64,000 nucleotides of DNA from a bacterium. GTDB taxonomy: Bacteria > Hinthialibacterota > Hinthialibacteria > Hinthialibacterales > Hinthialibacteraceae. Numbering within the stretch: position 1 is the stretch's first letter; the number at the start of each line of letters is the position of its first letter. Positions 5,561-19,238 of this stretch are shown here, in pieces. A model generated the notes under the pieces. That model was not told where the DNA came from and did not search any database. It saw only the letters and a program-made list of their open reading frames with translations. The stretch is taken from the NCBI GenBank assembly GCA_016125385.1, contig WGLV01000013.1:26006-90005 (forward strand), written 5' to 3'. A program made the translations under genes and the position numbers.

Positions 5561-6092
5561 TTTCAGTAACGCTGAGAATATCGGTTACGCGAACGCCGAA
5601 GTTTTCACCGATGACGATCATTTCACCCTTGGCGAAGCCACGCGCGTTCACCAAAAGGTCGACGGGCTCACCGTTCAGCTTGTTGAGTTCCAACACCGAA
5701 CCCGAGCCCATCTCCAGAATGTCGCGGACGGTTTTCCGGGTTTTGCCAAGCTCAACGCGAATCTCAAGGTCAAGGTTGAGAATCACGTCGAGGTTGGTGG
5801 TCTCCATCGCCGGTTCTTCTTCGTCAAACGGCACGAAGACGGCGGGCTGAACCTGAACCGAGCGATCCAGTTTGGCTGATCGCTGATGTTTGGTTTTTGA
5901 TTCGCCGCCCCCCTGCATCTGATCGAAGCTGGGCATGGAAGCGGAGGCGGAGGCGGATGAATAGGAAGGTTTTTTAGGCGCGGGACGCGGGGCTTCTTCC
6001 GCCACGTCGTCCTGCGCCTGATCGGCCAGACCCGACTTAAGCAGAAGATCGATTTCTTCTTGTGAAAGCAGATCGCTCATACCCGTCCTCAA
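5541..6092 (-). CDS. fliN: Flagellar motor switch protein FliN/FliY-type (SpoA domain) with an N-terminal CheY-binding peptide
   Basis: 183 aa. N-terminal LSQEEIDLLL (the FliM/FliY CheY-P binding motif), then an acidic/Ser-rich linker. The C-terminal block TTNLDVILNLDLEIRVELGKTRKTVRDILEMGSGSVLELNKLNGEPVDLLVNARGFAKGEMIVIGENFGVRVTDI is a clear FliN (SpoA) domain. Confidence 0.75.
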   Translation of the reverse strand: MRTGMSDLLSQEEIDLLLKSGLADQAQDDVAEEAPRPAPKKPSYSSASASASMPSFDQMQGGGESKTKHQRSAKLDRSVQVQPAVFVPFDEEEPAMETTNLDVILNLDLEIRVELGKTRKTVRDILEMGSGSVLELNKLNGEPVDLLVNARGFAKGEMIVIGENFGVRVTDILSVTEIIEALK

Positions 6093-6214
6093 CCATCAAA
6101 CTCAATGAATTCTGACCGCATCATAGCACAAAATCAACTTTTTTCATTCCACGAAAAGACATGCGGACGCGAGCGCCATCGTTCACGCCTGTTGAAACGA
6201 ACCCTCGCGCACGC

Positions 6215-7306
6215 TTACAGATTCAGTTTTTTCTTTAATTTTTTATACACCGTGTAGGCGTATTCAAACACGGCCTCGGCGTGGGCGTTCCATTCAAAAT
6301 AGTGTTCTTTGACGCCTTCCGGCGAGATGAGCGAACGCCCCAGCGAGTCATCGCTTCCATGAAACGGAAGCAACTCCTCCACGATGCCGATAAACTGAAC
6401 TCCATACCCCACCGGATACGGATAAGGGCAGTTGGGCGGCTCCGGCCCCGTATGCTCAATGCGAATAATGCCCAGCATCTTCACGTGAGATAGCGATACG
6501 CCGATCTGGCGGGACGCCTCACGCCGGAAGGTATCTTCGGGCGATTCGCCGATATCGATCCGGCCGCCGATAATCTCCCAACCCCGGCCAGGAATGTTGG
6601 CGAGCACCAGTTTATCGCCATGAAAGACGAACCCGCCCGAGATACAGGTCAGATCGGGCGGCGGCAGATGTTCGGTGGGTTCAAAAAAGATTTTGCTGCC
6701 GCTGCCCCACGTCGTTTCAGGAAAGCGCGGTTTCTCGGTTTCGCGAGAAGGATGTTTTGGGCCTGCGGGTCTGATTTTGATCGAGGGCCTCACTACCTTT
6801 TTAGTCGAGGCCTTCACCGCCGCAGGGCTTTTCTTCACGGTTTTAACGGGAGACTTTGCGGCCGGCTTTGGCGATTTTTTCGTCTCGGGCTTTCGTACAT
6901 CCTTGACCTTCGTCTTTTTTACGGGCGAAGGTTTGGACGTTTTTTTCTGATTCGAAACGGCTTTAGGAACAGCACCCTTTTTGGTTACCGGCGTTTTCGA
7001 CGGCGATTTGGGGGCCGCTTTTTTTGAGGTGGCTTTTTGCGCCGCCGGATTGCTTTTCGCGGATTTTTTTACGGAGCCGGTTTTCGCCATTTTTGCGGGC
7101 TTGTTTTTTGGAGCGGCGCTCTTTTTCAGCGTGGATTTACTGGCGGATGCACGGGTGTTCGCCGCTTTCGCCCGGGTTTGATCAGCTTTTTTAGGGGTGG
7201 AGGTTGTTTTTTTCGCTTTCGCCTTGTTTTTTTGCGCGGCTCTGGACGCGGCGGAAGTCGACTGACTCTTTTTATTCGCTGATTTCTTTGAGTTTGCGGC
7301 CGCCAT
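6215..7306 (-). CDS. Fusion protein: histone-H1/AlgP-like Lys/Ala/Pro-rich N-terminal tail (~200 aa) + C-terminal Nudix hydrolase domain
   Basis: The N-terminal half is low-complexity KKxAxKxxxK repeats (AKAKKTTSTPKKADQTRAKAANT...). The C-terminal part carries a recognisable Nudix box GGRIDIGESPEDTFRREASRQIGV (G-x5-E-x7-RE...G), partially degenerate at the Glu-Glu positions. Confidence 0.65.
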   Translation of the reverse strand: MAAANSKKSANKKSQSTSAASRAAQKNKAKAKKTTSTPKKADQTRAKAANTRASASKSTLKKSAAPKNKPAKMAKTGSVKKSAKSNPAAQKATSKKAAPKSPSKTPVTKKGAVPKAVSNQKKTSKPSPVKKTKVKDVRKPETKKSPKPAAKSPVKTVKKSPAAVKASTKKVVRPSIKIRPAGPKHPSRETEKPRFPETTWGSGSKIFFEPTEHLPPPDLTCISGGFVFHGDKLVLANIPGRGWEIIGGRIDIGESPEDTFRREASRQIGVSLSHVKMLGIIRIEHTGPEPPNCPYPYPVGYGVQFIGIVEELLPFHGSDDSLGRSLISPEGVKEHYFEWNAHAEAVFEYAYTVYKKLKKKLNL

Positions 7307-7678
7307 GTTCTAATCCTTACTTGGATTGCCGCCCCGAGAGCACGTTTTCGAGCCACCCATTCCGAGCTCGCAGCGGAGAAAATTCATCCGATATTTACAT
7401 CATGGGCAGAATGCTTACGCCACAAATTATATTCGATTTTACTTTTGGGATGCAATACGGCAACCAAAAAGACCTCATTCTTTTTTTATTTATTAATACA
7501 AGCAAATTATTTGACAACGACATAAAATCATATTTTTATTACACTTACATAATTTTCCACTTATCCGAGACCCTGATGCAAATTAAACAAAAATGTCCTG
7601 AAAATCGCGAAAAATCGATTCAATCCACAAAATTAAGCCATTTCATGGCGTAAATTATGGCGGCTCAGAGTATTCAGA

Positions 7679-9652
7679 ATGCATTTTCCACCACTTTATT
7701 CATCCACTTCGATGAATTTCAATACCGGTAACGAAATGTCTTATCGACCCGTATGCGGATGCCGGACCATGGATGCTTCAACTCAACCACACGGAAAGCA
7801 AACCCGATTCAAATCGGCGTTCCGGTTTTCCTTCAATACAGGCAGCCGCCGCCTGTTTATCTTTCTATGGGCGATTTGTGGGCTGTGGCCTCTTTTTCTG
7901 CTCACTCTAACGGTATCAATCTCCAATCCCGGTTTTCTTGACTCGTGTCCAGTTACGTTGGCTTCTTTATCAGCTGGCGCGGGCCTGATCGCCGCTTTCG
8001 GTTTTACTCTAGCCTCCCGCCTGATCATGCGCGGGCGTTGGTCGAATTACCTCGTCCCGGCTCGGCGTATCACTGCGCTGGCCTGGATCATCCCCCTGGC
8101 GGGTTTCATGGCGCTGGGCATCGTTTCAGCCGGTTGGCGAATGAGCCAGCCCCGGCTCAATGACGCCCGTTTCATCGTGTTTGGGCTCGACGCCGCCACC
8201 TGGGATATCATCGATCCCCTGTTGGAACAGGATAAACTGCCCAATCTCAAAAGACTTATCGACTCAGGCGCTCGCGCCGATTTCATCAGCCTCGAACCGA
8301 TCCGTTCTCCGCTCGTTTGGACCAGCATCGCGACCGGGCGCCCGCCTGAAGCGCATGGAGTGGAAGGTTTTTTTTCGACCCGGCTTGACCTTCGCGTCCC
8401 GCGCCTGTGGGATGTGGCGCACGCCGCCCGGCTCCGCGTCGGTCTGTTTCGATGGCTGACAACCTGGCCGGTGCTCGATTCGTTTGAATTCGTCGTCCCG
8501 TCATGGATCGCGCGCTCGCCGGAAGCCTGGCCGGCGGATTGCGGCTGCATCCAGCAGACGCTGCTCGAACAAGGCGTGGATGGGGCCTATAACCCTGCCT
8601 CCGCGTTGTTTGGTTGCGCCCGGCTGGGCGCGGGAGCGGGCGCAATCGACCGGATGACGTGGTTCTACCTGAGCGACGCGGTGGGTTTAAGCGAAGAAGA
8701 ACGGCTGGAGCGAAAAGCGCTAAGCGAAGTACGTCTTCAGACCGATCTGTTCATAGCATTAATGCGGCGCCATCGCCCCAACGCCGCCGCATTCTGCCTG
8801 TACGGAACCGACCAACTGGGGCATCGATTCTGGCATTACATGAAACCAGACCAATTCCACTCTCCGCCGCCGAACGCCTGCCCTGAATTCGCCTCCGTGA
8901 TCGAACGCTATTACCACGCGGCGGATCGCGCCATTGGCCGCGTACTGCGTTCGCTTCCCCCTGATTGCCGCGTGGCGGTGATTTCAGACCACGGCATGAA
9001 GGCCGATCCCGCCCTGCCTGGCCAGTATTTCGCCGACATGGACGCCATTCTTTCCGCTCTGGGGCGGCGAGGCGAGTTTCGCCATCATACCATCGAACGG
9101 CATATTCTGATCGATCCCGCCCCCGGCCATGAAAATCAGCTGGACGCCCTCGCGAACGGCCTCGGCCGCATCCATTTCACCGGCGATGAAGATCCCATTT
9201 TCACGACCGAACGCGAAGGGAACACCCTGTCGGTACGCACCAATTTTTCACTGACCGCTCATCCCGATTCGCCGCTGGCACAGAATCCAACCATTGAGAT
9301 CGCGGGCGAAACCATCCCGACCGGGCGGCTCTTTTTTGTACGCTATTTTTCTGGGACGCATGATTTAAAAGGCGTAATGGTTCTGCACGGGCCGGGCGTA
9401 AGGGCGGGGGCGCGTCTGGGCGAGGTTTCATTGCTCGATTTCGCCCCCACGGCGTTGTACTGGCTCGATCTGCCCATCAGCCGTGAGATGGAAGGCCGTG
9501 TCGTCAGCGAAGCGTTCAAGGAAGGCGCGCTGGAAGCCCGGCCGGCGAAGTACGTGGACGAGTATCCCGCGCTGAGGGAGAATGGGGGCGAGGTTCCCGG
9601 CGACCAGAACGCCTTTATGGAGCGCCTGCGCAGCCTGGGTTATGTTGAATAA
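7679..9652 (+). CDS. Membrane-anchored alkaline-phosphatase-superfamily enzyme (type I phosphodiesterase / nucleotide pyrophosphatase family, PF01663-like)
   Basis: N-terminal TM helices, then FGLDAATWDIIDPLLEQDKLPNLKRL...SPLVWTSIATG (metal-ligand Asp/Thr region) and the downstream VISDHGM motif typical of PF01663/AlkP-core enzymes. The true start is probably downstream of 7679. Confidence 0.65.
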   Translation: MHFPPLYSSTSMNFNTGNEMSYRPVCGCRTMDASTQPHGKQTRFKSAFRFSFNTGSRRLFIFLWAICGLWPLFLLTLTVSISNPGFLDSCPVTLASLSAGAGLIAAFGFTLASRLIMRGRWSNYLVPARRITALAWIIPLAGFMALGIVSAGWRMSQPRLNDARFIVFGLDAATWDIIDPLLEQDKLPNLKRLIDSGARADFISLEPIRSPLVWTSIATGRPPEAHGVEGFFSTRLDLRVPRLWDVAHAARLRVGLFRWLTTWPVLDSFEFVVPSWIARSPEAWPADCGCIQQTLLEQGVDGAYNPASALFGCARLGAGAGAIDRMTWFYLSDAVGLSEEERLERKALSEVRLQTDLFIALMRRHRPNAAAFCLYGTDQLGHRFWHYMKPDQFHSPPPNACPEFASVIERYYHAADRAIGRVLRSLPPDCRVAVISDHGMKADPALPGQYFADMDAILSALGRRGEFRHHTIERHILIDPAPGHENQLDALANGLGRIHFTGDEDPIFTTEREGNTLSVRTNFSLTAHPDSPLAQNPTIEIAGETIPTGRLFFVRYFSGTHDLKGVMVLHGPGVRAGARLGEVSLLDFAPTALYWLDLPISREMEGRVVSEAFKEGALEARPAKYVDEYPALRENGGEVPGDQNAFMERLRSLGYVE

Positions 9653-9670: not shown

Positions 9671-10021
9671 TTAAGACTCGGATTTCGCGTGTTGTTCGAC
9701 GAATTGCTTCCAGGCGTCGTCAAAGATTTCTTCGCGATGATCCCAAAGACCCTGACTGTTGAAAAAGGTCTGGATTTCAGGCTTGTTGAGTGCGATGCGT
9801 TTGATGGTTTCACGCGTCTGCTCGGGGTTTTCCTTCAACTGGGTCAACACGTCGGGGTTCTGCTTAACCGCCGAGTCGAATACGCCGAGCAGTTCGTTCC
9901 TGCATTTCTCCTGTCCGCTGGTGGCGGTATTGAACACCATGAACCCGACAGCCAGCGCCGCGATCGCGAACAATGCAACGGCCCACAACCCGCTTGGAAC
10001 CTGTTTTTTTTCATCAGACAT
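9671..10021 (-). CDS. Small hypothetical membrane-anchored protein (116 aa)
   Basis: Single N-terminal TM helix (GLWAVALFAIAALAVGFMVF) followed by a hydrophilic domain. Transcribed divergently from the giant-paralog operon. Confidence 0.4.
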   Translation of the reverse strand: MSDEKKQVPSGLWAVALFAIAALAVGFMVFNTATSGQEKCRNELLGVFDSAVKQNPDVLTQLKENPEQTRETIKRIALNKPEIQTFFNSQGLWDHREEIFDDAWKQFVEQHAKSES

Positions 10022-10341
10022 GAATCGATTCTCCTGAAATTCCGTTTGGCGTCTATGACGCCGCGCCCGCGATTCGACCGCCGTTCGTACCCCCCGGGAT
10101 GAAGATTCCCTCGAAATCGTGGAGTAACCATTGTACCCTGTTGTCGTTATACATAAACGCGTCCGCGCCGGTTCAATACATCATCCATCCGGCGCGCCGG
10201 GGTCTGTATGGCATCCCGTTTATTCTGTTTTTGCGTTTCGCGCCCGCCGCGGAGCCGCTTCATTCACCTCGAACCGGGCCCCGTTTATTTTTTTACATTA
10301 TCTGATGCTGAATCAACGTCCTTCCAGAAAGGTGTTCGTGC

Positions 10342-13300
10342 ATGTTCGCTTCATTTTATCCGATTCGGAGACGCATCGGCGTCCTGTTTCTGCTGACCGC
10401 TTTATCGGCGCACGCTTTCGCCGCCGGGATGGGAGAGACCATCTGGCGCTCGTACCTCAGCCAGGGCGATCTCGACGCCGCGCTGGGCGGGTTTGAGAAA
10501 GCCCTGAAAGAACACCCCGATGACGCGCTGGCGCAGGCGGGTTACGCCTATCTCAGCGAAAGCCGCTCGGGCGCCGAACAGAGTTTCACCCATTTTCTCG
10601 ATGCGCTCGACGCGGGCAAAGACGACCCCGAAGCGACCCTTTATCTGTTTGAAGCCTATCAGCGAGCCAGCGGGCGCGAAGACCGTGAAACCCTGCTCAA
10701 ACGTCTGGACCCGTTGTTGAACAACGCTTCGGCGCCCGTGCATTTCGCCAGTCACGCGCGTTGGATTCAAGGGCGGCTGCTGCAACGGCTTGGCCGGTGG
10801 GATGAAGCCGAATCGGCATTCGACCGCCTGGGCTTTATCACCGATTTCTGGGTATGCGGCCCGTTTGACAACGCGGAAAAACGCGGCCACGCCCAGACCT
10901 TCGGCCCGGAAGAGAACCTCGACCTCGCCGCGCAATATCCCGGACGCCGCCGCCAGGTCGGCTGGCAACCGATTTCGCTGCAACCTTACGACGGCTATAT
11001 CGAACTGCATTCACAGGTTTCACCCTCACAGGAATCGACCGTTTACCTCGCCGCCCAGGTCACCAGCGACGCGACCCGCTCGGCGCGCCTGCTGGTTGGG
11101 TACGCCGGCGCGATAAAGGTGTGGGTGAATGGAGAGATCGCCCTCGACAACAACCGGTACCACTCCGCCATCCCCGATCAGTCGGCGGCGAACGTGGAGC
11201 TGCGGCCCGGCGCCAACGTTCTATTGCTGAAAGCCTCCGGCGGAGAAACGGGAAAATTCGGCGTATACGTTCGGCTCATCGATGACGATGGCCAACCGCT
11301 CAAGGCCGATCCGCTCGACTCCGGCCAACCGTTCGACTTTTCAAAATTCGCGAAAGTCTCCTCCAGTTCGATCGAAGGCGATTCACTCACGCATGAGCCG
11401 ACGGTGATCCGCCAGATGAAGGCGCTGGGTGAAAACCTCGCTCAGGAACCCTTCCGCGCGTTCTTTTACGTGCGGTTGATTGAACTGCTCGACGTACTGG
11501 ATGAAAACGACCAGACGGCCAACGCGCTGATGGGCCAGTTGTGCAAAGGCTTCCCCGGCAACACATTGCTGCTGCGCAATCTGGGCGCGACCGAGCCGCA
11601 GCCCAACCGCCAGCGGCTGGCGTATTCGCTGGTGCTGGAGAAAGACCCCAACGATCTGGCGGCGTTTTTAAAACTGCTAGATTACTACAAAGACTCTCCC
11701 TATGCGACAAAGGGCTTCGACCTCATCCGCGACTGGAAAAAACACGATGACGTACCGCTCAGCGCCGAGATCGCCAAAGCCCGCATGCTCAATCGCGAAG
11801 GGCTGCCCGAAGCCGCCGCCGAACTGCTCGCCCGCCACGAAGACGAACTCGACGCCGACGCGCGGTATCTTCTGCTGCAAACCATGGGCGGAACCCTGAC
11901 GCAAGACCAGCGAATCGAGCGTCTCAAGACGATTCTGAACGATGACGCGACGCACTCCGACGCGCTGCACGCCCTGCGCCGCATCGCCATGCAGGACGGC
12001 GACAAAGACCTGCTCAACGAAACTCTGAAACATGAACGCCGCATGGCGCCGTTTTCCATCGCGGGGTTGCTCGAACTCGCGGCGAATCAGCAGGCGCGCG
12101 GCCGGTATGACGAATCGATCGCGACGCTGCAAAAAGCGTTGACGATCGCGCCGGAAGATTTTCAGGCGCTGCGCATGACGGCCATCGCCTATAACCTGAC
12201 CGGAAAACGCGATGAAGCGCTCGGCGCGCTGGCGGCGGCTCAGACCATTCTGCCCTCCGATCCGTGGTGCCTCGAATATCAGAAATTTCTTCAGCCCGAC
12301 GATTCAAACTACGCCTCGCCCTACCTCCGCGACTGGAAAGAGGTCGAGATTCCCGATTCGCTCGATCTGTCGAAGGCGAACCATCTGGTGTTGATGCATC
12401 AGGAAATCGTCAAGGTGTTCCCCAACGGCAACTCGAGCCGCACCGTGCATGAAGCGGTGAAAATACTCACCGATAACGGCATCCGCATGCAGCAGGTGCG
12501 CGGCGTGTATTACGAAGCCGGCAGCGAAGACGTGGTGGTCAAACGCGCCCGCGTCTGGAAGCCCGGCGGAACCGTCTACGACGCGCCCGCGCCGGTGAAG
12601 CGGAGCGCCTCGTCCGCCTCCGACGCCGATTCGAAACTGTATCAGGATTACATGGTCGCGGCGCTTCAATTTCCCGCGCTGGAAAAAGGCAGCGTGCTTG
12701 AACTGGAATACGAGGTCGTCAGCAAAAAAGACAACATTTACGCGGACTATTTCGGCGACCAGTTCTTTATCGGCGACGGATTTTTCGAACCCACCGTCGA
12801 AACCGAGTACATCCTGATCTCGCCCGCCTCGCGCGAGTTTTATTACAAATTCATCGAACCTCACTACCCGCGATCGATCGTTCAGGCCGGCGCGCCCGAG
12901 CTCAAACCCGATCCGGAAGAAACCATCGGCGGTGCGGAGCGGGTGTGGCATTGGACTTTCCACTCGCTGCCGGCCATTCCACGCGAACCGCTGATGCCCG
13001 CCTCGTCCGAGATTCTGCCTTACATCAAAATCTCCACCTTCAAAACCTGGACGGAGATGATGGACTGGTACTGGAACCTCTCGAAAGATCAGTTAAAACC
13101 CGGCCCGGTGGTTAAAGACCGGCTTGAATTTCTGCTTCAGGAATATCGCCGCAAACGCGGTATTCCGGTCGAACACGAGCTGACGAAGTGGGAAAAAGTT
13201 CGCGCGGTGAATGAATACGTCAACACCGGCATCCGCTATCTGGGGCTTGAGTTTGGAATTCATGGCTATAAGCCGCACAAGGTCGATGAGATATGCAACG

Positions 13301-14244
13301 CGCAATACGGCGATTGCAAAGACAAGGCGGCGCTGGCGGTCGCCATGCTGGGCGAGTTGGGCATCGACGCGCGCATGGTGATTCTGCGCACGACCGACCG
13401 GGGTGAATTCGATTACGATCTGCCCATGCTCGGCATGTTCAACCACGCCATTTATTACCTCCCCGATCTCGACGGCAAGGAGATGTGGATCGACGGAACC
13501 GCCACCTTCTTCGACGCGTCCGAACTCCCGCCCGGCGATCGGGGCGCCAACAGCCTGATCGTCGTGCCCGGCGGCGACGGCTTTTTCAAGCGCATCCCCT
13601 ATTCCAGCGCCGACGACAACGGCGGGGTCTACACCACCCGCCTCACCATTGATGAAAACGGCGACGCCCAGGGCGTGCGCGCGTCCGAGTTCCGCGGTCT
13701 GTACAACCCCATCGTCCGCCGGACCTACGAAAACCAGACCAAGGCCAAGGAAGTGGTCGACCAGATCATGGCGGGGCAATATCCCGGCAGCGAATCGTCG
13801 AACATCCAACTCTCCGACCTCGACGATTACTCCACCTCCGAGAGCCTGACCTATGAGATGAAGATTCCCCAATTCGGGGGCAAACACGGCGGGCGGATGA
13901 TTTTCCCCAGCACGTTCTTCGGCGACGATCTCTCTCAGCGGTACGCGCAACTCTCCAATCGCGAGTACGACCTCGTTTTGAGTTACCCCTGGTCGCGCAC
14001 CAACATTCTCCAGCTGAACCTGCCCGATTCGTTCAGTTCGGTCGAGCTGCCCGCCGACCGCGATCTCGAAACCGAGTTCGGCTCGTATCAACGCAAGACC
14101 ACCCGCGAAAACGGAGTGATTGAAATCAGAGAGACGCTGATCTTCAAACCGGTGCGGGTCGCCCGCGAAAAATACGCCGATTTCCGTGAATTCTGCCGCC
14201 TGGTCGATCTGTACCAGGACGAAAACGTGAACGCGAACCTGTAA
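10342..14244 (+). CDS. Giant secreted protein (1300 aa): signal peptide, TPR-like repeats, beta-sandwich module, more TPR, DUF3857-like domain, transglutaminase-like cysteine-protease core (intact Cys-His-Asp) and a C-terminal domain
   Basis: Signal peptide MFASFYPIRRRIGVLFLLTALSAHAFAAG. TGase-like core YGDCKDKAALAVAMLGELGIDARMVILRT...FNHAIYYLPD...MWIDGTATFF, with Cys codon at 13315-13317, His at 13444-13446 and Asp at 13492-13494. The upstream EYEVVSKKDNIYADYF block is DUF3857-like. Confidence 0.8.
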   Translation: MFASFYPIRRRIGVLFLLTALSAHAFAAGMGETIWRSYLSQGDLDAALGGFEKALKEHPDDALAQAGYAYLSESRSGAEQSFTHFLDALDAGKDDPEATLYLFEAYQRASGREDRETLLKRLDPLLNNASAPVHFASHARWIQGRLLQRLGRWDEAESAFDRLGFITDFWVCGPFDNAEKRGHAQTFGPEENLDLAAQYPGRRRQVGWQPISLQPYDGYIELHSQVSPSQESTVYLAAQVTSDATRSARLLVGYAGAIKVWVNGEIALDNNRYHSAIPDQSAANVELRPGANVLLLKASGGETGKFGVYVRLIDDDGQPLKADPLDSGQPFDFSKFAKVSSSSIEGDSLTHEPTVIRQMKALGENLAQEPFRAFFYVRLIELLDVLDENDQTANALMGQLCKGFPGNTLLLRNLGATEPQPNRQRLAYSLVLEKDPNDLAAFLKLLDYYKDSPYATKGFDLIRDWKKHDDVPLSAEIAKARMLNREGLPEAAAELLARHEDELDADARYLLLQTMGGTLTQDQRIERLKTILNDDATHSDALHALRRIAMQDGDKDLLNETLKHERRMAPFSIAGLLELAANQQARGRYDESIATLQKALTIAPEDFQALRMTAIAYNLTGKRDEALGALAAAQTILPSDPWCLEYQKFLQPDDSNYASPYLRDWKEVEIPDSLDLSKANHLVLMHQEIVKVFPNGNSSRTVHEAVKILTDNGIRMQQVRGVYYEAGSEDVVVKRARVWKPGGTVYDAPAPVKRSASSASDADSKLYQDYMVAALQFPALEKGSVLELEYEVVSKKDNIYADYFGDQFFIGDGFFEPTVETEYILISPASREFYYKFIEPHYPRSIVQAGAPELKPDPEETIGGAERVWHWTFHSLPAIPREPLMPASSEILPYIKISTFKTWTEMMDWYWNLSKDQLKPGPVVKDRLEFLLQEYRRKRGIPVEHELTKWEKVRAVNEYVNTGIRYLGLEFGIHGYKPHKVDEICNAQYGDCKDKAALAVAMLGELGIDARMVILRTTDRGEFDYDLPMLGMFNHAIYYLPDLDGKEMWIDGTATFFDASELPPGDRGANSLIVVPGGDGFFKRIPYSSADDNGGVYTTRLTIDENGDAQGVRASEFRGLYNPIVRRTYENQTKAKEVVDQIMAGQYPGSESSNIQLSDLDDYSTSESLTYEMKIPQFGGKHGGRMIFPSTFFGDDLSQRYAQLSNREYDLVLSYPWSRTNILQLNLPDSFSSVELPADRDLETEFGSYQRKTTRENGVIEIRETLIFKPVRVAREKYADFREFCRLVDLYQDENVNANL

Positions 14245-14252
14245 GGATACCT

Positions 14253-17200
14253 ATGACGATGACGCGAGTTTTCAAACTTTCTCTTACGCTTTTCGCATGG
14301 CTGGCCTCCGCCTCCATCGCTTTCGCTTCGGTGGAAGACGGCTGGCGCCTGCTGCTTGATAACCGATTCGCCGAAGCGGACGCCGCTTTCGCGGCCGCGT
14401 CCGAACACGCGCCCAACGAGGCGGCGTTGCGCGGGCGCCTGCTGGCCGCCTGGGCGCGGGGCGACGACCCCGCCGCCGCCGAAGCGCTCACCGCGCTGAT
14501 CGAAAATTTTCCCGCCAGCCCCTGCCTGCCCGCCTACCTGGCGTTCTGCAGCCAGCCCAATCTGATGGGTTGGAGCCACGCCGGGCGCGAGCAGGCCGTG
14601 CGCCGCGCGCTGACTCAGACGATGCCCGCAGCGAACCACGCCCGCCTTCAGTTCGAGCTGATGCAATCGATGGAGGCGCTGATCGATAAAGCCGCCGGCG
14701 CGGCCGCGCGCGAAGCGGGCGTCATCATCGATGAGTGGAACGTCGTGGGGCCGTTCGGACGTCACGGCGCGGCCGATTTCTTCACGCCGTTCGGTCCCGA
14801 GGTTTCGTGGTCGCCGATCTACGACGGCTGGGCGGACCGAGTCGACATTCACCCCGTGGGGCAGGCCGATGAAGTGGGAACGCTCGACCTCGACGGGCTG
14901 GTTTACCCGAGTGAAGGCGTCGCGTACCTGATAAACGCGATCGAATCGCCGCGCGAGCAGGGCGTCGAACTCTCCATCCTGTCGCCCGCCGACGTTCGCG
15001 TGTGGGTCAACGGCGAGCCGCTGATGCAGAAGACGCGCCTGGCGCTGCACTCGGCGAACGCGCTATCCGCGAAAACGCGCCTGAAACAGGGGAAGAACCT
15101 GATCGCGGTCAAACTCTTGCGCACCGACGGTTGGCATCTGCGCGCCCAGCTTCGCCCCTTGGGCGGCGAGGCGGTCGAGTTCCACTCGATTCCCTTCGCG
15201 CTCACCGACTGGCGCAATCTCTATCTGACCCCCTTTGAAACCACCGGGCGGCTTGATGAAACCTGCGATGGACTCAAGCCGGACTATCCCTTCGAATTAC
15301 CGTCCGGCGATTCAACCTCCCAACGCATAGAGAACGCTCTGCTGCGCGCGTTCTGGCATCTCGACCGCTACGAACTCGCCGCCGCGCGCGACGCGGCGCG
15401 TGAGGCGAGCGCCGCCGCTCCGGATTTCGTACTTCCCTATTCGCTGATGGGCGATATCGCGCTTCGCCAGGCGAAAGACCGGCCCGGATCGTCGTCGCGG
15501 TTTCAGCAGGAGGCGGAAGAAGCCTTCCGCGCCGCGCTCGACCGGGCGCCGAACCTGCTGCCCGCGCTGATCGGCATGCAGACCTACCTGCTCGATCGCG
15601 ATCAGACCGACGCCGCGATGGCCCTGATCGATCGATATCCTCCCATGCAATACACCGGACGCGCCGATTACGTGGCGGGGGTGGTTTACGCCAAGAAAGG
15701 CTTTACCGCCGAGACGGCGCAACGATTTGAAAAAGCGCGGCAGGGTTTTCCGCCCAGTTTCGACGTCATCACTCGCCTGTTCGATTACTACAAAGCCAAC
15801 CGGGCCGATAAAGAAGCGCGGGAATTGATCGCCAGCGGTCTCGAAATCTACCCCTCATTTCTCTCGTTCATTCAGCGCGCCAATCAGCTCGACGAAGCGC
15901 CGTCCGGCGGCGCCGATCCAGAACCCCGGCTCAAGGCGCTGATCGAGATGCACCCCAACTCGCCCCAATACGCCTTTCAATTGGCCACCTGTTACGAAAA
16001 CGCCGGGCGGCTGGACGACGCGATGGCGCTGTATGGCGAGATGCAAAAACGGTTCTCCAATCACCCTCAGGTCGCCGAACGGATCGCGTCGCTGAACATG
16101 GTTCGCGGCAAGCGGGACAAGGCGCTGGAAGAATATTCGGCGATTCATCAGACCGAACCGCTGTGGATGGAACCGTTCCGCCTGTTGCGCGATTCCGGCG
16201 ACCGGGAATTCGCCTATCAGAAGTACGACGTTTCGCTCGACGACGTGAATGTCGAAGACGCCCAGCGCTGGAAGAATTCACGCGGGTCGTCCATCTACCT
16301 TCTCGACATCATGGTGCTCGAATATCACGAAGACGGAACCTACGACATGTACGTCCACCAGGCGGTTCAGGTGCTCAACCAGCAGGGCGTGCAGAAATGG
16401 GCCGAAGTGGTCATCCCCAAAGGCCCCAATGTCGAGATCATCAAAGGACGGACGATCACGCCCGACGGTCTTGAATGGGCGGTGTCGCACGTGCAGGACC
16501 TCAGCGGTCAACAGTCGCTCTCGATGTACGGCCTCGAAGAAGGCGGCGTCATCGAGTACGCCTACCTGCAACGGGGCGGACGCGACGATCCGGGTGTTCG
16601 AGCGCACACCGGCGGCTATTTCTTCGGCTCCGACGACGACCCCATGCTGCTCTCACAGCTCACGCTGATCGCCCCGGCCGATCTTCCATTGAACTTCGAT
16701 CGGCATCCCGTTGATTTCGATCCAGAAATTTCGGTCGACAACGGCCGCAAGGTTTACGTCTGGACGAACCGCCTGCAAGACGGTCTCAAGCCGGAGCGTT
16801 TCGCCCCGCCGCTGGCGCAGCGGGTGAAATCCGTTCAATGGACCACCGGCGCCGACTGGCTGACGCTGGCCGAACGCTACCGCGCGTCGCGGCTCGGCTA
16901 TCAGGAAGATTCGGACGAAGTACGCGCCCGGACGGATGAACTCACCAAAGACGCGGGATCGAAACACGAGATCATTGAGCGGATCTATAACTGGATTCGC
17001 GAATCGATCGAAGACAGCGCGGGAGGCTCAACCACCGCCGATACCGTTAAGCTGAAAGCGGGCGGGCGCTATCAGAAACTGCGCCTCATGCGTCACATGC
17101 TGAGCCTGGCCGGCGTAAAAACGCAGATGGTCTACGCGCTGGAAGGCGAAAAAGACGACGGGACCCATCCCTTGCCCTATCCCGCCTATCCCGGCTCACT

Positions 17201-18017
17201 GCTGTTGCGCATCCCCGAGCAGGATGGCGTGGCTGAACCCATTCTGGTTGATTTCGCCAGCCGCTTCGCGCCGCTGGGTGAAGTCGGCCCGCACGAGAAA
17301 AAACAGCTCGCGCTCGTCTTTGACGGCGTGGTCCCCTATTTCTATCCGCTGATGCCCAAAATATGGGAGCAGGGCCTGCTGATCCGCCAGGCTGAAATGA
17401 CGTTTAACGACGACCTCACCGCCCAGGTCAGCGGCGATTACGAATTTGGCTACCTGTACGATCAACAGATTCGTCAGGCGCTCACCAATCCCGAAGTCCG
17501 CAACCGGCTCGCCGACGCGCAGACATCGAGCGATTTTCGGGGCATCCAGCTCGACTCCGCCGGATTCGAAGACACCGAAGACCTCGCGAAGACGCCCCGG
17601 CTGGTCTTTAAGGGAACCATGCCCGACGCGGCCAAACCCGACCAGAACGGCTCATTTCACATCGAACCGGTCATCGTTCGGTCTGAGGCTTCCGGACTGG
17701 TCAGCGACGCCACCCGCCAGTTTCCCATCAAGTTCGACGCCAGCCCGGTTCAGGATCATTTTGAAATGCGCTTCGACCTGTCGAACTGGTTGAAACAGGG
17801 CGCGCGGATTCAACTGCCGGATAACGCGCTGCTCATCTCAGACTTCGGCTTTTATTCGCTGTATTTCGCATGGGATGGAGACGACGTCGTCATGAGACGC
17901 TCGTTCCTGATCCCCAGTCAGACCATCGAAACGGACGATTATCCGCGTTTCGTCGAGTTTTGCCGGTCGATCGACCAGATCGAAGACCGGGTGATCCGGG
18001 TTTATCCCGCATCATAA
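14253..18017 (+). CDS. Giant secreted paralog (1254 aa) of the upstream gene: same TPR / beta-sandwich / DUF3857-like / TGase-like layout but the catalytic Cys and His are replaced (predicted pseudo-enzyme)
   Basis: Signal peptide MTMTRVFKLSLTLFAWLASASIAFA. Shares the beta-sandwich module (W-x3-GPF ... VWVNGE) and DUF3857-like block (VIEYAYLQ) with 10342..14244. At the position of GDCKDKAAL it has GRYQKLRLMRHMLSLAG (no Cys), and at the His position it has YPGSLLLRIP. The start lies 8 bp after the upstream stop, so the two genes form an operon. Confidence 0.75.
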   Translation: MTMTRVFKLSLTLFAWLASASIAFASVEDGWRLLLDNRFAEADAAFAAASEHAPNEAALRGRLLAAWARGDDPAAAEALTALIENFPASPCLPAYLAFCSQPNLMGWSHAGREQAVRRALTQTMPAANHARLQFELMQSMEALIDKAAGAAAREAGVIIDEWNVVGPFGRHGAADFFTPFGPEVSWSPIYDGWADRVDIHPVGQADEVGTLDLDGLVYPSEGVAYLINAIESPREQGVELSILSPADVRVWVNGEPLMQKTRLALHSANALSAKTRLKQGKNLIAVKLLRTDGWHLRAQLRPLGGEAVEFHSIPFALTDWRNLYLTPFETTGRLDETCDGLKPDYPFELPSGDSTSQRIENALLRAFWHLDRYELAAARDAAREASAAAPDFVLPYSLMGDIALRQAKDRPGSSSRFQQEAEEAFRAALDRAPNLLPALIGMQTYLLDRDQTDAAMALIDRYPPMQYTGRADYVAGVVYAKKGFTAETAQRFEKARQGFPPSFDVITRLFDYYKANRADKEARELIASGLEIYPSFLSFIQRANQLDEAPSGGADPEPRLKALIEMHPNSPQYAFQLATCYENAGRLDDAMALYGEMQKRFSNHPQVAERIASLNMVRGKRDKALEEYSAIHQTEPLWMEPFRLLRDSGDREFAYQKYDVSLDDVNVEDAQRWKNSRGSSIYLLDIMVLEYHEDGTYDMYVHQAVQVLNQQGVQKWAEVVIPKGPNVEIIKGRTITPDGLEWAVSHVQDLSGQQSLSMYGLEEGGVIEYAYLQRGGRDDPGVRAHTGGYFFGSDDDPMLLSQLTLIAPADLPLNFDRHPVDFDPEISVDNGRKVYVWTNRLQDGLKPERFAPPLAQRVKSVQWTTGADWLTLAERYRASRLGYQEDSDEVRARTDELTKDAGSKHEIIERIYNWIRESIEDSAGGSTTADTVKLKAGGRYQKLRLMRHMLSLAGVKTQMVYALEGEKDDGTHPLPYPAYPGSLLLRIPEQDGVAEPILVDFASRFAPLGEVGPHEKKQLALVFDGVVPYFYPLMPKIWEQGLLIRQAEMTFNDDLTAQVSGDYEFGYLYDQQIRQALTNPEVRNRLADAQTSSDFRGIQLDSAGFEDTEDLAKTPRLVFKGTMPDAAKPDQNGSFHIEPVIVRSEASGLVSDATRQFPIKFDASPVQDHFEMRFDLSNWLKQGARIQLPDNALLISDFGFYSLYFAWDGDDVVMRRSFLIPSQTIETDDYPRFVEFCRSIDQIEDRVIRVYPAS

Positions 18018-18042
18018 CCCGCTTGTTTTTCCCCTGATATTT

Positions 18043-18082
18043 CTTCAGCGCGCACCGGAAACGATGCGCGCTGAAATATTTT
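18043..18082 (+). terminator. Rho-independent terminator after the giant-paralog operon
   Basis: Perfect 11-bp inverted repeat TTCAGCGCGCA / TGCGCGCTGAA with an 11-nt loop, followed by ATATTTT. Confidence 0.6.
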
Positions 18083-18452
18083 CTATTGCACTGCGACGAA
18101 ATCGGTCTATTATATTTTTGATCGCGCAAAGATAGGTAATTTTGTGCTCGTTCACAGGTCGGTTGACGGTTCAAGCTCAGGTTCATACATCAATATCATT
18201 TGAGCATAGACGCCAATCCACCATTTTATATGTTCCACTTGCACCCAGTGCGCAAACTTGACATACAGTGCAACCCATCTCTATTGGCGGAAGGCACAAG
18301 CGAATCAAACAGGAACATTTGAATGAGTATGAAACCTGCTGCGTGAAATCATTTTTCAAATTCTCACGAGCCGGTTTTGCTGTCAGTCAGGCATGATTGA
18401 ATGGCTGTATTTTCTTGTGGCAGTTCTAATGACAGGTGGTTGAACAGTTTTC

Positions 18453-19238
18453 ATGAATCAAGAAGGCGGCATCCCGGGCGAACCACATCGTTCAGAGCCG
18501 AACCGCTCCGCTGAACGGGAGCTGAAGCGTATCGTTGAACTTCAGCGCAACTTTCTGCCCCAGCAATTTCCATCGTACCCCCCTCTTCATTGGGCGGCGA
18601 TGTATCACCCGTCGACCGATGTGGGCGGCGATTATTACGACGTGATTCCCATCGACGAAAACCGATGCGGCGTCGTCATCGCTGACGTGTCTGGACACGG
18701 AGCCTCGGCGGCGGTGGTAATGGCGCTGACCCAGATGGCAGTGAAGGAATTTCTGCCGCAATGCGATGACCCTGGCGAGGCGCTGCTCGTATTGAATCAG
18801 AAACTGAAACGCCACATGCTGCCTCATCATTTCGTCACCATGCTGATCGCCATCGCCGACGTCAGCCGGATGACGCTGTCATACGCTTCCGCCGGACACC
18901 CTCCCATGATCTGCCTTGAACACACCTGCAAATCGGTGAGCTTGCTCGACGTGGAACCGGGCTTCCCCCTCTGCACGCTGCCGGTGTCGTCGTATCCGCG
19001 GTATGAACGCCCGTTGAATTCGGAAGAGATTTACCTGCTCTATACCGACGGCGTGGTCGACACGCCCGATCCGCGAAACCGGTTTTTCGGCGACGACCGG
19101 CTGATGAAAACGTTAAAGAGCCTCGACACCTGCTCGGCTGAATTCGCCGTGCAGCATGTTTTTGAGCAGACGGAACAATACCGCGCCGGCGCCGAGCGCC
19201 TCGATGATTTTTCACTGCTCGCCATGGAGGTGAAGTGA
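18453..19238 (+). CDS. PP2C-type serine phosphatase (SpoIIE/RsbU-like catalytic domain only)
   Basis: 261 aa. Motifs GGDYYDV, ADVSGHGASAA, SAGHPP and YTDGVVD characteristic of the SpoIIE/PP2C phosphatase domain. No sensor or partner domain is present. Confidence 0.8.
   Translation: MNQEGGIPGEPHRSEPNRSAERELKRIVELQRNFLPQQFPSYPPLHWAAMYHPSTDVGGDYYDVIPIDENRCGVVIADVSGHGASAAVVMALTQMAVKEFLPQCDDPGEALLVLNQKLKRHMLPHHFVTMLIAIADVSRMTLSYASAGHPPMICLEHTCKSVSLLDVEPGFPLCTLPVSSYPRYERPLNSEEIYLLYTDGVVDTPDPRNRFFGDDRLMKTLKSLDTCSAEFAVQHVFEQTEQYRAGAERLDDFSLLAMEVK

What the first reader, a model, noticed from the sequence alone, without database searches (positions are those of the whole stretch)
10342..18017. Two-gene operon of giant secreted paralogs: a transglutaminase-like enzyme with an intact Cys-His-Asp triad and a pseudo-enzyme partner
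Two adjacent 1300-aa and 1254-aa proteins, 8 bp apart, have the same architecture: signal peptide, TPR, beta-sandwich, TPR, DUF3857-like and transglutaminase-like core. The first keeps the catalytic triad (Cys at 13315-13317 in GDCKDKAAL, His at 13444-13446 in NHAIYY, Asp at 13492-13494 in IDGT). The second has lost the Cys and His (GRYQKLRLMRHMLSLAG; YPGSLLLRIP) while conserving the fold, the classic enzyme/pseudo-enzyme pairing. They are transcribed from a dedicated AT-rich promoter region and closed by a strong terminator (18043-18082). DUF3857+TGase proteins are known as single genes, mostly in Bacteroidetes. I do not know of a TPR-decorated, paired active/inactive, >1200-aa version having been characterised. 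Plausible roles are a secreted protease/cross-linking system acting on glycoconjugates or on a host/prey surface, with the dead paralog as substrate adaptor or inhibitor.
Basis: partly seen in the sequence, partly recalled or inferred. Interest (0 to 1): 0.75.

Follow-up and report, generated by a model that had tools for sequence, protein, structure and literature searches.

The report
Conserved live/dead transglutaminase-like protein pair
Two adjacent genes encode large exported look-alike proteins, one a transglutaminase-fold cysteine enzyme with its active site intact and the other a copy whose active site is gone; the same uncharacterised pair recurs in many bacterial phyla, so it is a real, widespread system of unknown function.

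Summary
ORFs A (10342-14244, 1300 aa) and B (14253-18017, 1254 aa) lie 8 bp apart and align end to end (20% identity, E 1e-19). Both have a signal peptide, TPR, a beta-sandwich, TPR, DUF3857, a transglutaminase-like core and a DUF3858-like domain. A keeps Cys992/His1035/Asp1051. These residues are invariant in 40 orthologues from at least 5 phyla, and the Cys aligns with the catalytic Cys of LapG and 3ISR. B has lost the Cys and His, yet its model still matches the three-domain 3KD4 fold (E 1e-29).

The pair is not peculiar to this window. Of 66 informative loci, 39 carry A followed by B (Myxococcota, Acidobacteriota, Planctomycetota, Verrucomicrobiota, Hinthialibacterota-type MAGs). A and B fall on opposite sides of one split in the tree and their trees mirror each other (Mantel r 0.94). 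B evolves faster, and its core has lost the extra conservation seen in A.

No member is characterised; databases call both proteins "DUF3857 domain-containing protein". The best reading is an exported transglutaminase-fold cysteine hydrolase or acyltransferase that works with a non-catalytic paralogue. Substrate, chemistry and physical association are all inferred. This is a new variant of a known kind, of moderate interest.

The parts
10022..10341 (+). 5' intergenic region between the divergent small gene (9671-10021, minus strand) and gene A. It presumably holds the promoter, which was not identified.
   Evidence: The upstream gene is on the opposite strand, so A must start a transcription unit. 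GC is 51-53% against about 60% in the genes. No sigma-70 consensus was found on the + strand.
10342..14244 (+). Gene A: 1300-aa exported protein with an intact transglutaminase-like active site.
   Evidence: It has 61-28% identical full-length orthologues.
10342..10425 (+). A signal peptide (aa 1-28, MFASFYPIRRRIGVLFLLTALSAHAFA|AG).
   Evidence: Judged by eye. Similar N-termini occur in orthologues. No predictor was run.
10429..10836 (+). A, first TPR block (aa about 30-165).
   Evidence: Pfam TPR_14/TPR_6/TPR_7 at 36-162.
10837..11316 (+). A beta-sandwich (aa about 166-325), weakly resembling PA14/galactose-binding-like domains.
   Evidence: All matches are below threshold. RhaB_D2 matches 4 of 12 family members (best E 1.3e-5). 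PDB profile hits are the PA14 domain of RsgI3 (E 0.0025) and BoGH31A (E 0.019).
11419..12291 (+). A, second TPR block (aa about 360-650).
   Evidence: Pfam TPR_2/TPR_16/TPR_19 at 520-641. The profile matches OGT and consensus-TPR structures over 426-643.
12421..12978 (+). A DUF3857 domain (aa 694-879).
   Evidence: Pfam E 6.9e-27. It is modelled with high confidence.
13177..13539 (+). A transglutaminase-like core (aa 946-1066), with Cys992 (13315-13317), His1035 (13444-13446) and Asp1051 (13492-13494).
13933..14193 (+). A C-terminal DUF3858-like domain (aa 1198-1284).
14242..14252 (+). A-B junction: stop codon TAA overlapping an AAGGA Shine-Dalgarno-like site, 5 nt before B's ATG.
   Evidence: In orthologous loci the A-B gap or overlap is 11, 11, -1, 103, -4 and -7 nt.
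14253..18017 (+). Gene B: 1254-aa exported paralogue with the same architecture and no active site.
16332..16772 (+). B DUF3857 domain (aa 694-840), the best conserved part of B.
   Evidence: Pfam E 2e-14. Identity to the L001 orthologue is 64% here against 53% overall. B-specific conserved positions are H702, E768, F791, P808, E848 and P859.
16926..17264 (+). B degenerate transglutaminase-like core (aa about 892-1004): Arg939 in place of the Cys, Gly981/Ser982 in place of the His, Asp1000 retained.
   Evidence: There is no Cys anywhere in this region of B. The fold is retained in the model.
18036..18087 (+). Intrinsic-terminator-like hairpin (GC-rich stem 18045-18054 / 18065-18074) with a U-rich tail.
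   Evidence: -23.3 kcal/mol, z -4.6.

Best explanation
A and B form a two-gene operon that has been inherited as a unit since an ancient duplication.

**Gene A.** A encodes a Sec-exported protein of about 145 kDa. Its C-terminal half is a DUF3857 / transglutaminase-core / DUF3858 module with a working papain-type Cys992-His1035-Asp1051 triad. It therefore forms a thioester acyl-enzyme intermediate on an amide bond of a peptide or a glutamine side chain. I consider hydrolysis (a protease or amidase, as in the periplasmic LapG-type enzymes) somewhat more likely than protein cross-linking.

**Gene B.** B encodes a paralogue that keeps the whole fold and the N-terminal TPR / beta-sandwich / TPR half but has lost the nucleophile and the general base. 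It is kept under selection as a non-catalytic partner. Most likely it assembles with A, or holds the substrate for A, in the periplasm or on or outside the cell surface.

**N-terminal halves.** The TPR blocks and the PA14/galactose-binding-like sandwich of both proteins are the probable binding surfaces for each other and for a protein or glycoconjugate substrate.

**Shown:**
- the paralogy and the shared architecture;
- the intact site in A against the eroded site in B;
- retention of the fold in B;
- tight gene linkage;
- conservation of the pair across phyla, and co-diversification of A and B.

**Inferred:**
- export and final location;
- catalytic activity and the type of chemistry;
- physical association of A with B;
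- the substrate.
For: - **Architecture and paralogy:**
- **Active site in A, sequence:** GDCKDKA aligns with the catalytic Cys motif of LapG (GDCEDYA) and 3ISR (GVCRDFA). The model puts the Cys at the N-terminus of a helix and the His and Asp on two neighbouring strands.
- **Conservation:** C992, H1035 and D1051, plus Y966, F971, G972, P978, D991, K993, D994, K995, D1066, R1126 and R1207, are 100% conserved in 40 A orthologues. In 80% of B orthologues the D-C-K triplet is deleted and the His position is variable.
- **Domain-wise constraint:** the transglutaminase core is A's most conserved domain (83% against 60% overall to L001). In B it is only average (57% against 53%), and DUF3857 is B's most conserved domain.
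- **B keeps the fold:** Foldseek to 3KD4 gives E 1e-29 and TM 0.73 over about 600 columns, and 3ISR is also hit.
- **Linkage:** an 8-bp gap with a Shine-Dalgarno-like site over A's stop codon. Orthologous loci have overlaps or short gaps.
- **Distribution:** A followed by B occurs in all 6 loci fetched through A homologues, down to 28% identity in Acidobacteriota, and in 39 of 66 informative genome loci.
- **Family size:** among the 135 full-length proteins in the best 150 representatives found with B, 112 lack GDCxD and 23 have it. This agrees with the A-versus-B HMM preference in 130 of 135.
- **Tree:** the 40 A sequences form one clade that contains no B. A and B distance matrices correlate (Mantel r 0.94, 0 of 2000 permutations reach it). 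B is the more diverged partner in 99% of genome pairs.
- **Export:** signal-peptide-like N-termini are conserved in both families.
Against: - No experiment exists for any member. DUF3857 and DUF3858 appear only incidentally in the searchable literature.
- Physical A-B association could not be tested, because no multimer prediction was available. Mirror trees follow from co-inheritance alone.
- The pair is not obligatory. Myxococcaceae and Archangium loci and locus L010 have a full-length A with no B downstream.
- No sequence-profile or residue-level structural alignment covers His and Asp. The Pfam match ends at residue 1022.
- B's model was built on an alignment that included A-type sequences, which may bias it toward A's fold.
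- No conserved third gene or candidate substrate was found in the neighbourhoods.
Confidence: 0.6

Rival explanations
1. A is a true transglutaminase or deamidase. It cross-links or deamidates glutamine residues of envelope or extracellular proteins rather than cleaving peptide bonds, and B acts as its scaffold.
Against: Most characterised bacterial members of this fold that are exported are hydrolases, such as LapG. The motif around the Cys (GDCxD) matches LapG better than the canonical G-x-C-x-x-F-A. The fold cannot decide between the two.
Confidence: 0.25
2. B does not bind A. It has taken on an independent non-enzymatic role, for example as a receptor, a decoy or competitive inhibitor that occupies A's substrate, or an envelope scaffold. 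The genes are merely co-regulated.
For: B's conserved residues lie in DUF3857, not at a recognisable interface. Some lineages keep A without an adjacent B. The solved relative 3KD4 also lacks the Cys, and its gene neighbourhood was not examined here.
Against: Adjacency in the same order, with overlapping or nearly abutting genes, is kept from Hinthialibacterota-type MAGs to Acidobacteriota and Planctomycetota. The A and B trees mirror each other. Gene order this stable usually marks subunits of one complex, but that is an inference.
Confidence: 0.3
3. This is a LapG-like regulated periplasmic protease system. A releases a large surface adhesin, and B together with the neighbouring signalling genes (PP2C, ECF sigma, cNMP-binding proteins) controls access to it.
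Against: Peptidase_C93 is far below its cut-off (14.2 bits against 27). No LapD-like receptor, LapA-like adhesin or type I secretion genes were seen next to the pair. None of the signalling neighbours is universal.
Confidence: 0.1
4. B is a decaying duplicate with no function.
For: B evolves faster than A, and its active site is eroded.
Against: B is an intact ORF of about 1200-1340 aa in more than 40 genomes from several phyla. At least 112 distinct 50%-identity clusters are of the B type. B has its own conserved positions, a conserved signal peptide and a confidently modelled fold.
Confidence: 0.02

Closest known systems
PDB 3KD4 (BDI_1141, Parabacteroides distasonis, 'putative protease'; DUF3857 / transglutaminase core / DUF3858, structural genomics)
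   Different: 3KD4 has 505 residues and no TPR / sandwich / TPR half, and its function is unknown. It has YGTPLEIA where A has YGDCKDKA, so it lacks the nucleophile and resembles B rather than A at that position.
LapG and the bacterial transglutaminase-like cysteine proteinases (BTLCP, Pfam Peptidase_C93)
   Different: LapG is a single domain of about 200 aa, regulated by LapD and c-di-GMP, and it cleaves the adhesin LapA. Here the profile match is below the cut-off (E 0.037), the core sits inside a 1300-aa multidomain protein, and no Lap partners are nearby.
Animal transglutaminases and the catalytically dead homologue protein 4.2
   Different: There is no detectable sequence relationship beyond the core, no TPR half, and the chemistry of A is unknown.
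Adjacent active/inactive paralogue pairs that form heterodimeric peptidases (for example M16 processing peptidase alpha/beta) - an analogy from general knowledge
   Same: Two same-fold paralogues are encoded side by side, and only one has catalytic residues.
   Different: The fold and the chemistry are unrelated, and heterodimer formation is not shown here.

Membership tests
Transglutaminase-like superfamily (Pfam PF01841 Transglut_core; papain-like clan CA) | Profile match above the curated cut-off. | tested here: met
   A scores 37.9 bits against a cut-off of 23 (E 2.3e-9). B alone does not meet it: 14.2 bits, E 0.053.
Transglutaminase-like superfamily (Pfam PF01841 Transglut_core; papain-like clan CA) | A nucleophilic Cys at the N-terminus of a helix that aligns with the catalytic Cys of characterised members. 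| tested here: met
   A's Cys992 aligns with the Cys of LapG (GDCEDYA) and 3ISR (GVCRDFA). It starts helix 338-351 of the model. B has Arg939 at that position, or a 3-residue deletion in 80% of B orthologues.
Transglutaminase-like superfamily (Pfam PF01841 Transglut_core; papain-like clan CA) | His and Asp of the triad on neighbouring beta-strands, superposable on those of known enzymes. | tested here: inconclusive
   H1035 and D1051 are invariant in 40 A orthologues and lie on consecutive strands of the model.
Transglutaminase-like superfamily (Pfam PF01841 Transglut_core; papain-like clan CA) | Overall core fold. | tested here: met
DUF3857 / DUF3858 three-domain family (Pfam PF12969, PF12970; type structure 3KD4) | DUF3857 profile match. 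| tested here: met
   A: E 6.9e-27. B: E 2e-14.
DUF3857 / DUF3858 three-domain family (Pfam PF12969, PF12970; type structure 3KD4) | A DUF3858 C-terminal domain. | tested here: inconclusive
   A scores 25.4 bits against a cut-off of 27, and B has no hit. Both models nevertheless align to 3KD4 through its C-terminal domain.
BTLCP / LapG family (Pfam PF06035 Peptidase_C93) | Profile match above the cut-off. | tested here: not met
   14.2 bits against a cut-off of 27, E 0.037.
BTLCP / LapG family (Pfam PF06035 Peptidase_C93) | Genomic partners: a LapD-type receptor, a LapA-type adhesin and type I secretion genes. | tested here: not met
   None was found among the window neighbours or in the orthologous loci.
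BTLCP / LapG family (Pfam PF06035 Peptidase_C93) | Calcium-dependent proteolysis. | not testable with these tools
   The only evidence is the shared acidic residues that flank the Cys (D991, D994 against LapG D-C-E-D, PMC4866520).
Enzyme/pseudoenzyme heteromeric complex | Paralogues with the same fold, one lacking catalytic residues, co-encoded and co-inherited. | tested here: met
Enzyme/pseudoenzyme heteromeric complex | Physical association of the two proteins. | not testable with these tools
   No multimer prediction or experimental data were available.

The most novel reading that the evidence does not exclude
The A-B pair is an obligate heteromeric machine of the bacterial cell envelope. 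A transglutaminase-fold enzyme would be active, or correctly targeted, only when clamped to its dead paralogue through the TPR / sandwich halves. It would act on a still unknown envelope or extracellular protein or glycoconjugate substrate that is common to Myxococcota, Acidobacteriota, Planctomycetota and their relatives. Loss of the active site would also have arisen more than once in this superfamily (the B clade, the short Terriglobales form, and 3KD4-type proteins), making pseudoenzyme partnership a general design principle of DUF3857 proteins.
Probability: 0.35. Interest if true: 0.65.

Novelty: new variant of a known kind. Interest (0 to 1): 0.5.

Why it matters
DUF3857/transglutaminase-like proteins are common in environmental and gut bacteria, and none has a known function. 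The only solved structure (3KD4) is labelled 'putative protease', yet the alignment shows it lacks the catalytic Cys.

Three results give a concrete starting point for experiments:
- There are two ancient, co-inherited lineages, one live and one dead.
- They are encoded side by side in many phyla.
- The constraint on the catalytic core is relaxed only in the dead lineage.

Together these say which protein to assay, which residue to mutate (C992), and which partner to co-express. The pair would also add a bacterial, exported example to the short list of enzyme/pseudoenzyme pairs. It does not by itself answer a long-standing question, because the substrate and the physiological role remain unknown.

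Tried and rejected
- **Third paralogue in the window.** The 1266-aa ORF at 37745-41545 is a GH116 glycosidase, not a relative.
- **Conserved third gene or substrate.** I clustered the flanking ORFs of 47 pair loci. PP2C/SpoIIE follows B only in the Hinthialibacterota-type lineage and one Planctomycetota locus. ECF sigma factors are nearby in 7 loci and cNMP-binding proteins in 6. Nothing is universal. The largest flanking ORFs of 20 diverse loci looked heterogeneous and partly spurious in high-GC DNA, so I did not pursue them.
- **Profile search with the B alignment in the word-indexed database.** It was swamped by generic TPR proteins and added only a few true members (P0029-P0033, P0039).
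- **PDB search with the whole C-half alignment.** This was also dominated by TPR hits. A core-only profile was needed to see the LapG and 3ISR alignments.
- **Named families.** NCBIfam gave only generic sub-threshold TPR hits. Rfam and tRNA scans of the window found nothing.
- **Identity of the beta-sandwich.** Only sub-threshold PA14/galactose-binding-like matches were found, so carbohydrate binding remains a lead, not a result.
- **B as a broken gene in L010 or Myxococcaceae.** tblastn with B found only the A gene there, so B is truly absent from those flanks.
- **Alternative nucleophile in B.** There is no Cys in B's core (Cys only at 91, 99, 338, 580 and 1237), and no conserved Ser, His or Cys appears there across B orthologues.
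- **Literature.** No functional study of DUF3857, DUF3858 or 3KD4 was found.


Full report
**1. Observation**

The three codons named for A are TGC (Cys992), CAC (His1035) and GAC (Asp1051), each in the quoted context. The two B strings are at aa 938-954 and 979-988.

Pfam results:

| Domain | A | B |
|---|---|---|
| TPR | about 36-162 and 520-640 | about 419-640 |
| DUF3857 | 694-879, E 6.9e-27 | 694-840, E 2e-14 |
| Transglut_core | 946-1022, E 2.3e-9, above cut-off | E 0.053, below cut-off |
| DUF3858 | 1198-1284, 25.4 bits (cut-off 27) | no hit |

BLASTP aligns A and B colinearly over about 1230 columns (20% identity, E 1e-19). They are full-length paralogues.

**2. Operon features**

- The gene upstream of A (9671-10021) is on the other strand, so A begins a transcription unit.
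- The upstream spacer is only mildly AT-rich (51-53% GC), and no sigma-70 consensus was found on the + strand. The promoter claim is therefore unverified.
- The A-B junction reads TAAGGATACCTATG. A Shine-Dalgarno-like AAGGA overlaps A's stop codon, 5 nt before B's ATG.
- After B, a GC-rich hairpin with a U-rich tail (18036-18087) folds at -23.3 kcal/mol, z -4.6.
- Both proteins start with a signal-peptide-like segment ending in AFA, as do their orthologues. This was judged by eye.

**3. Where the window comes from, and how common the pair is**

The exact proteins exist in public data as 'MAG: DUF3857 domain-containing protein [bacterium]' on a 184.8-kb contig. The best named relative is Ca. 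Hinthialibacter antarcticus, at 61% identity for A and 52% for B. That phylum (OLB16, formerly placed in Omnitrophota) is described as a degrader of complex polysaccharides (PMC9324843).

All six loci fetched through A homologues carry A directly followed by B. This holds down to 37% identity (L006) and 28% identity (L007, Acidobacteriota). The A-B gap or overlap is between -7 and +103 nt.

I scored the 80 best loci with A- and B-family HMMs:
- 39 have A followed by B. These include Myxococcota (with Polyangia, Nannocystaceae and Bradymonadales), Acidobacteriota (with Holophagae, Thermoanaerobaculia and Terriglobia), Planctomycetota, Verrucomicrobiota and Hinthialibacterota-type MAGs.
- 27 have A alone.
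- 14 are too short to tell.

The A-alone loci fall into these groups:
- Myxococcaceae and Archangium, and locus L010, have a full-length A with no B downstream; for L010, L016, L034 and L037 tblastn with B confirmed this.
- Poribacteria have proteins of about 910 aa.
- One other group has a different architecture, with the TPR at the C-terminus.
- Terriglobales have short proteins of about 670 aa.

An exhaustive HMMER search with B (aa 55-1254) found 812 representatives at E<=1e-10. Of the 135 full-length proteins among the best 150, 112 lack GDCxD and 23 have it. This agrees with the HMM preference in 130 of 135. The family is large, and B-type proteins form a big lineage of their own.

**4. 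Live against dead**

- In every A orthologue the motifs GDCKDKA, FNHAI and DGTA are kept. In every B orthologue the Cys and His are replaced or deleted.
- Over 40 genome-matched pairs, A has a block of 100% conserved positions in the core: Y966, F971, G972, P978, G990-D-C-K-D-K995, L998, F1033, H1035, P1041, D1051, T1053 and D1066, plus R1126 and R1207.
- In 80% of B sequences the D-C-K triplet is deleted, the His column is variable, and the Asp is kept in 70%.
- The transglutaminase core is A's most conserved domain (83% against 60% overall to L001). In B it is average (57% against 53%), and DUF3857 is B's best conserved domain.
- B has no Cys in the core at all.

**5. Structure**

- AlphaFold2 models of the C-terminal halves are confident. 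A aa 655-1300 has pLDDT 89.8. B aa 645-1254 has pLDDT 83.2. B's alignment included A-type sequences, which is a possible bias.
- A core-only profile aligns A's GDCKDKA with LapG GDCEDYA and 3ISR GVCRDFA. This is the catalytic Cys of a characterised Cys-His-Asp protease (PMC4359373 and PMC4866520).
- In the model the Cys opens a helix, and the His and Asp lie on the two following strands. This is the topology expected of the fold. I could not make a residue-level superposition for the His and Asp.
- The same alignment shows that 3KD4 has YGTPLEIA at the Cys position. The only solved member therefore lacks the nucleophile.

**6. Evolution**

- In a neighbour-joining tree of the C-terminal halves of 40 pairs, all 40 A sequences form one clade that contains no B. 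With the midpoint root the B sequences are not a clade of their own; they are the rest of the tree, so A and B are separated by a single split.
- The two subtrees have the same internal groupings.
- A-A and B-B distances correlate (Mantel r 0.94, 0 of 2000 permutations reach it). B is the more diverged partner in 99% of genome pairs.
- This points to one old duplication followed by co-inheritance, with relaxed but continuing constraint on B.
- Short Terriglobales proteins form adjacent dead-then-live pairs. These group with each other rather than with B, which suggests an independent loss. That conclusion rests on a distance tree only.

**7. N-terminal half**

The sandwich between the two TPR blocks gives only sub-threshold matches. 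All of them are to PA14/galactose-binding-like domains of carbohydrate-active proteins: RhaB_D2 in 4 of 12 members, the PA14 domain of RsgI3, BoGH31A, and the GH2 sugar-binding domain. This is a lead toward glycan binding and nothing more.

**8. Neighbourhood**

- A PP2C/SpoIIE phosphatase follows B in the window (18453-19238, after a 435-bp spacer of 44% GC). It does so in all Hinthialibacterota-type loci, usually fused to a receiver domain.
- ECF sigma factors lie nearby in 7 loci from several phyla.
- cNMP-binding proteins follow B in 5 Acidobacteriota loci, and a sixth lies upstream of A in L004.
- None of these is universal. The conserved unit is the A-B pair.

**9. Interpretation**

Shown: the two genes form a tightly linked, anciently duplicated, co-inherited pair of exported multidomain proteins. 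A has an intact transglutaminase-fold active site under strong constraint. B keeps the fold but not the site.

Inferred: A is a thiol acyl-enzyme hydrolase or transferase. I lean toward a protease or amidase, by analogy with LapG-type exported enzymes and because of the GDCxD motif. B is its non-catalytic partner, acting as an assembly partner, substrate adaptor or regulator. The TPR and sandwich halves mediate binding.

Rivals:
- A is a true cross-linking or deamidating enzyme.
- B acts independently of A.
- The pair is a LapG-like regulated adhesin-release system.
- B is a functionless relic. The conservation data exclude this one.

**10. Novelty and score**

The fold, the Pfam domains and the database label are known. 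No member has been characterised, and I found no description of the live/dead operon. I rate it a new variant of a known kind, with interest 0.5. It is a well-defined, widespread and testable enzyme/pseudoenzyme module, but its substrate and physiological role are unknown.

Noticed in passing
PDB 3KD4 (aligned to window 13177-13440): BDI_1141 is the only solved DUF3857 / transglutaminase / DUF3858 protein and is deposited as 'putative protease'. It has YGTPLEIA where A has YGDCKDKA, so it lacks the catalytic Cys and is a dead-type member. Its genomic neighbour was not checked.
   Followed up: partly
L071 3777-7854; also L074, L080, L081, L086, L087 (Terriglobales and relatives): Short proteins of about 670 aa with no TPR half occur as adjacent pairs in the reverse order (dead, then live). 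The upstream copy has lost the Cys and His. In the distance tree they group with each other rather than with the B clade, which suggests an independent loss of the active site.
   Followed up: partly
window 18018-19238: A 435-bp spacer of 44% GC is followed by a SpoIIE/PP2C phosphatase gene (18453-19238). A PP2C gene, usually fused to a receiver domain, follows B in every Hinthialibacterota-type locus and lies next to the pair in one Planctomycetota locus. A functional link to A-B is unknown.
   Followed up: partly
L002 692-1240; L006 5700-6374; L019, L025, L035, L060: ECF sigma factor genes lie next to the A-B pair in 7 loci from several phyla. cNMP-binding (sometimes FHA) proteins follow B in 5 Acidobacteriota loci (L007, L026, L028, L030, L039).
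   Followed up: partly
L014, L016, L017, L027, L029, L034, L037 (Myxococcaceae/Archangium) and L010: A full-length A-type gene of about 1250-1310 aa has no B downstream. tblastn with B on L010, L016, L034 and L037 finds no B: only the A gene is hit in the first three and nothing in L037. These include cultivable species (Archangium minus, Pyxidicoccus caerfyrddinensis) that could serve as natural 'A-only' comparators.
   Followed up: partly
window 9671-10021 (minus strand): A small 116-aa protein with one N-terminal hydrophobic helix is transcribed divergently from A. It has no Pfam or NCBIfam match, and it is conserved at the same position only in the closest relatives (L001, L002/L003).
   Followed up: partly
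window 37745-41545: A 1266-aa ORF with GH116 N-terminal and catalytic-region matches (beta-glucosidase 2 family). It is similar in size to A and B but unrelated to them.
   Followed up: no
window 60538-63339: A class II (B12-dependent) ribonucleotide reductase with a C-terminal TSCPD domain.
   Followed up: no
window 6001-8000: A local dip in GC (49% against about 59%) spans a NUDIX-domain gene (6215-7306, minus strand) and the start of a 657-aa type I phosphodiesterase/nucleotide pyrophosphatase gene (7679-9652).
   Followed up: no
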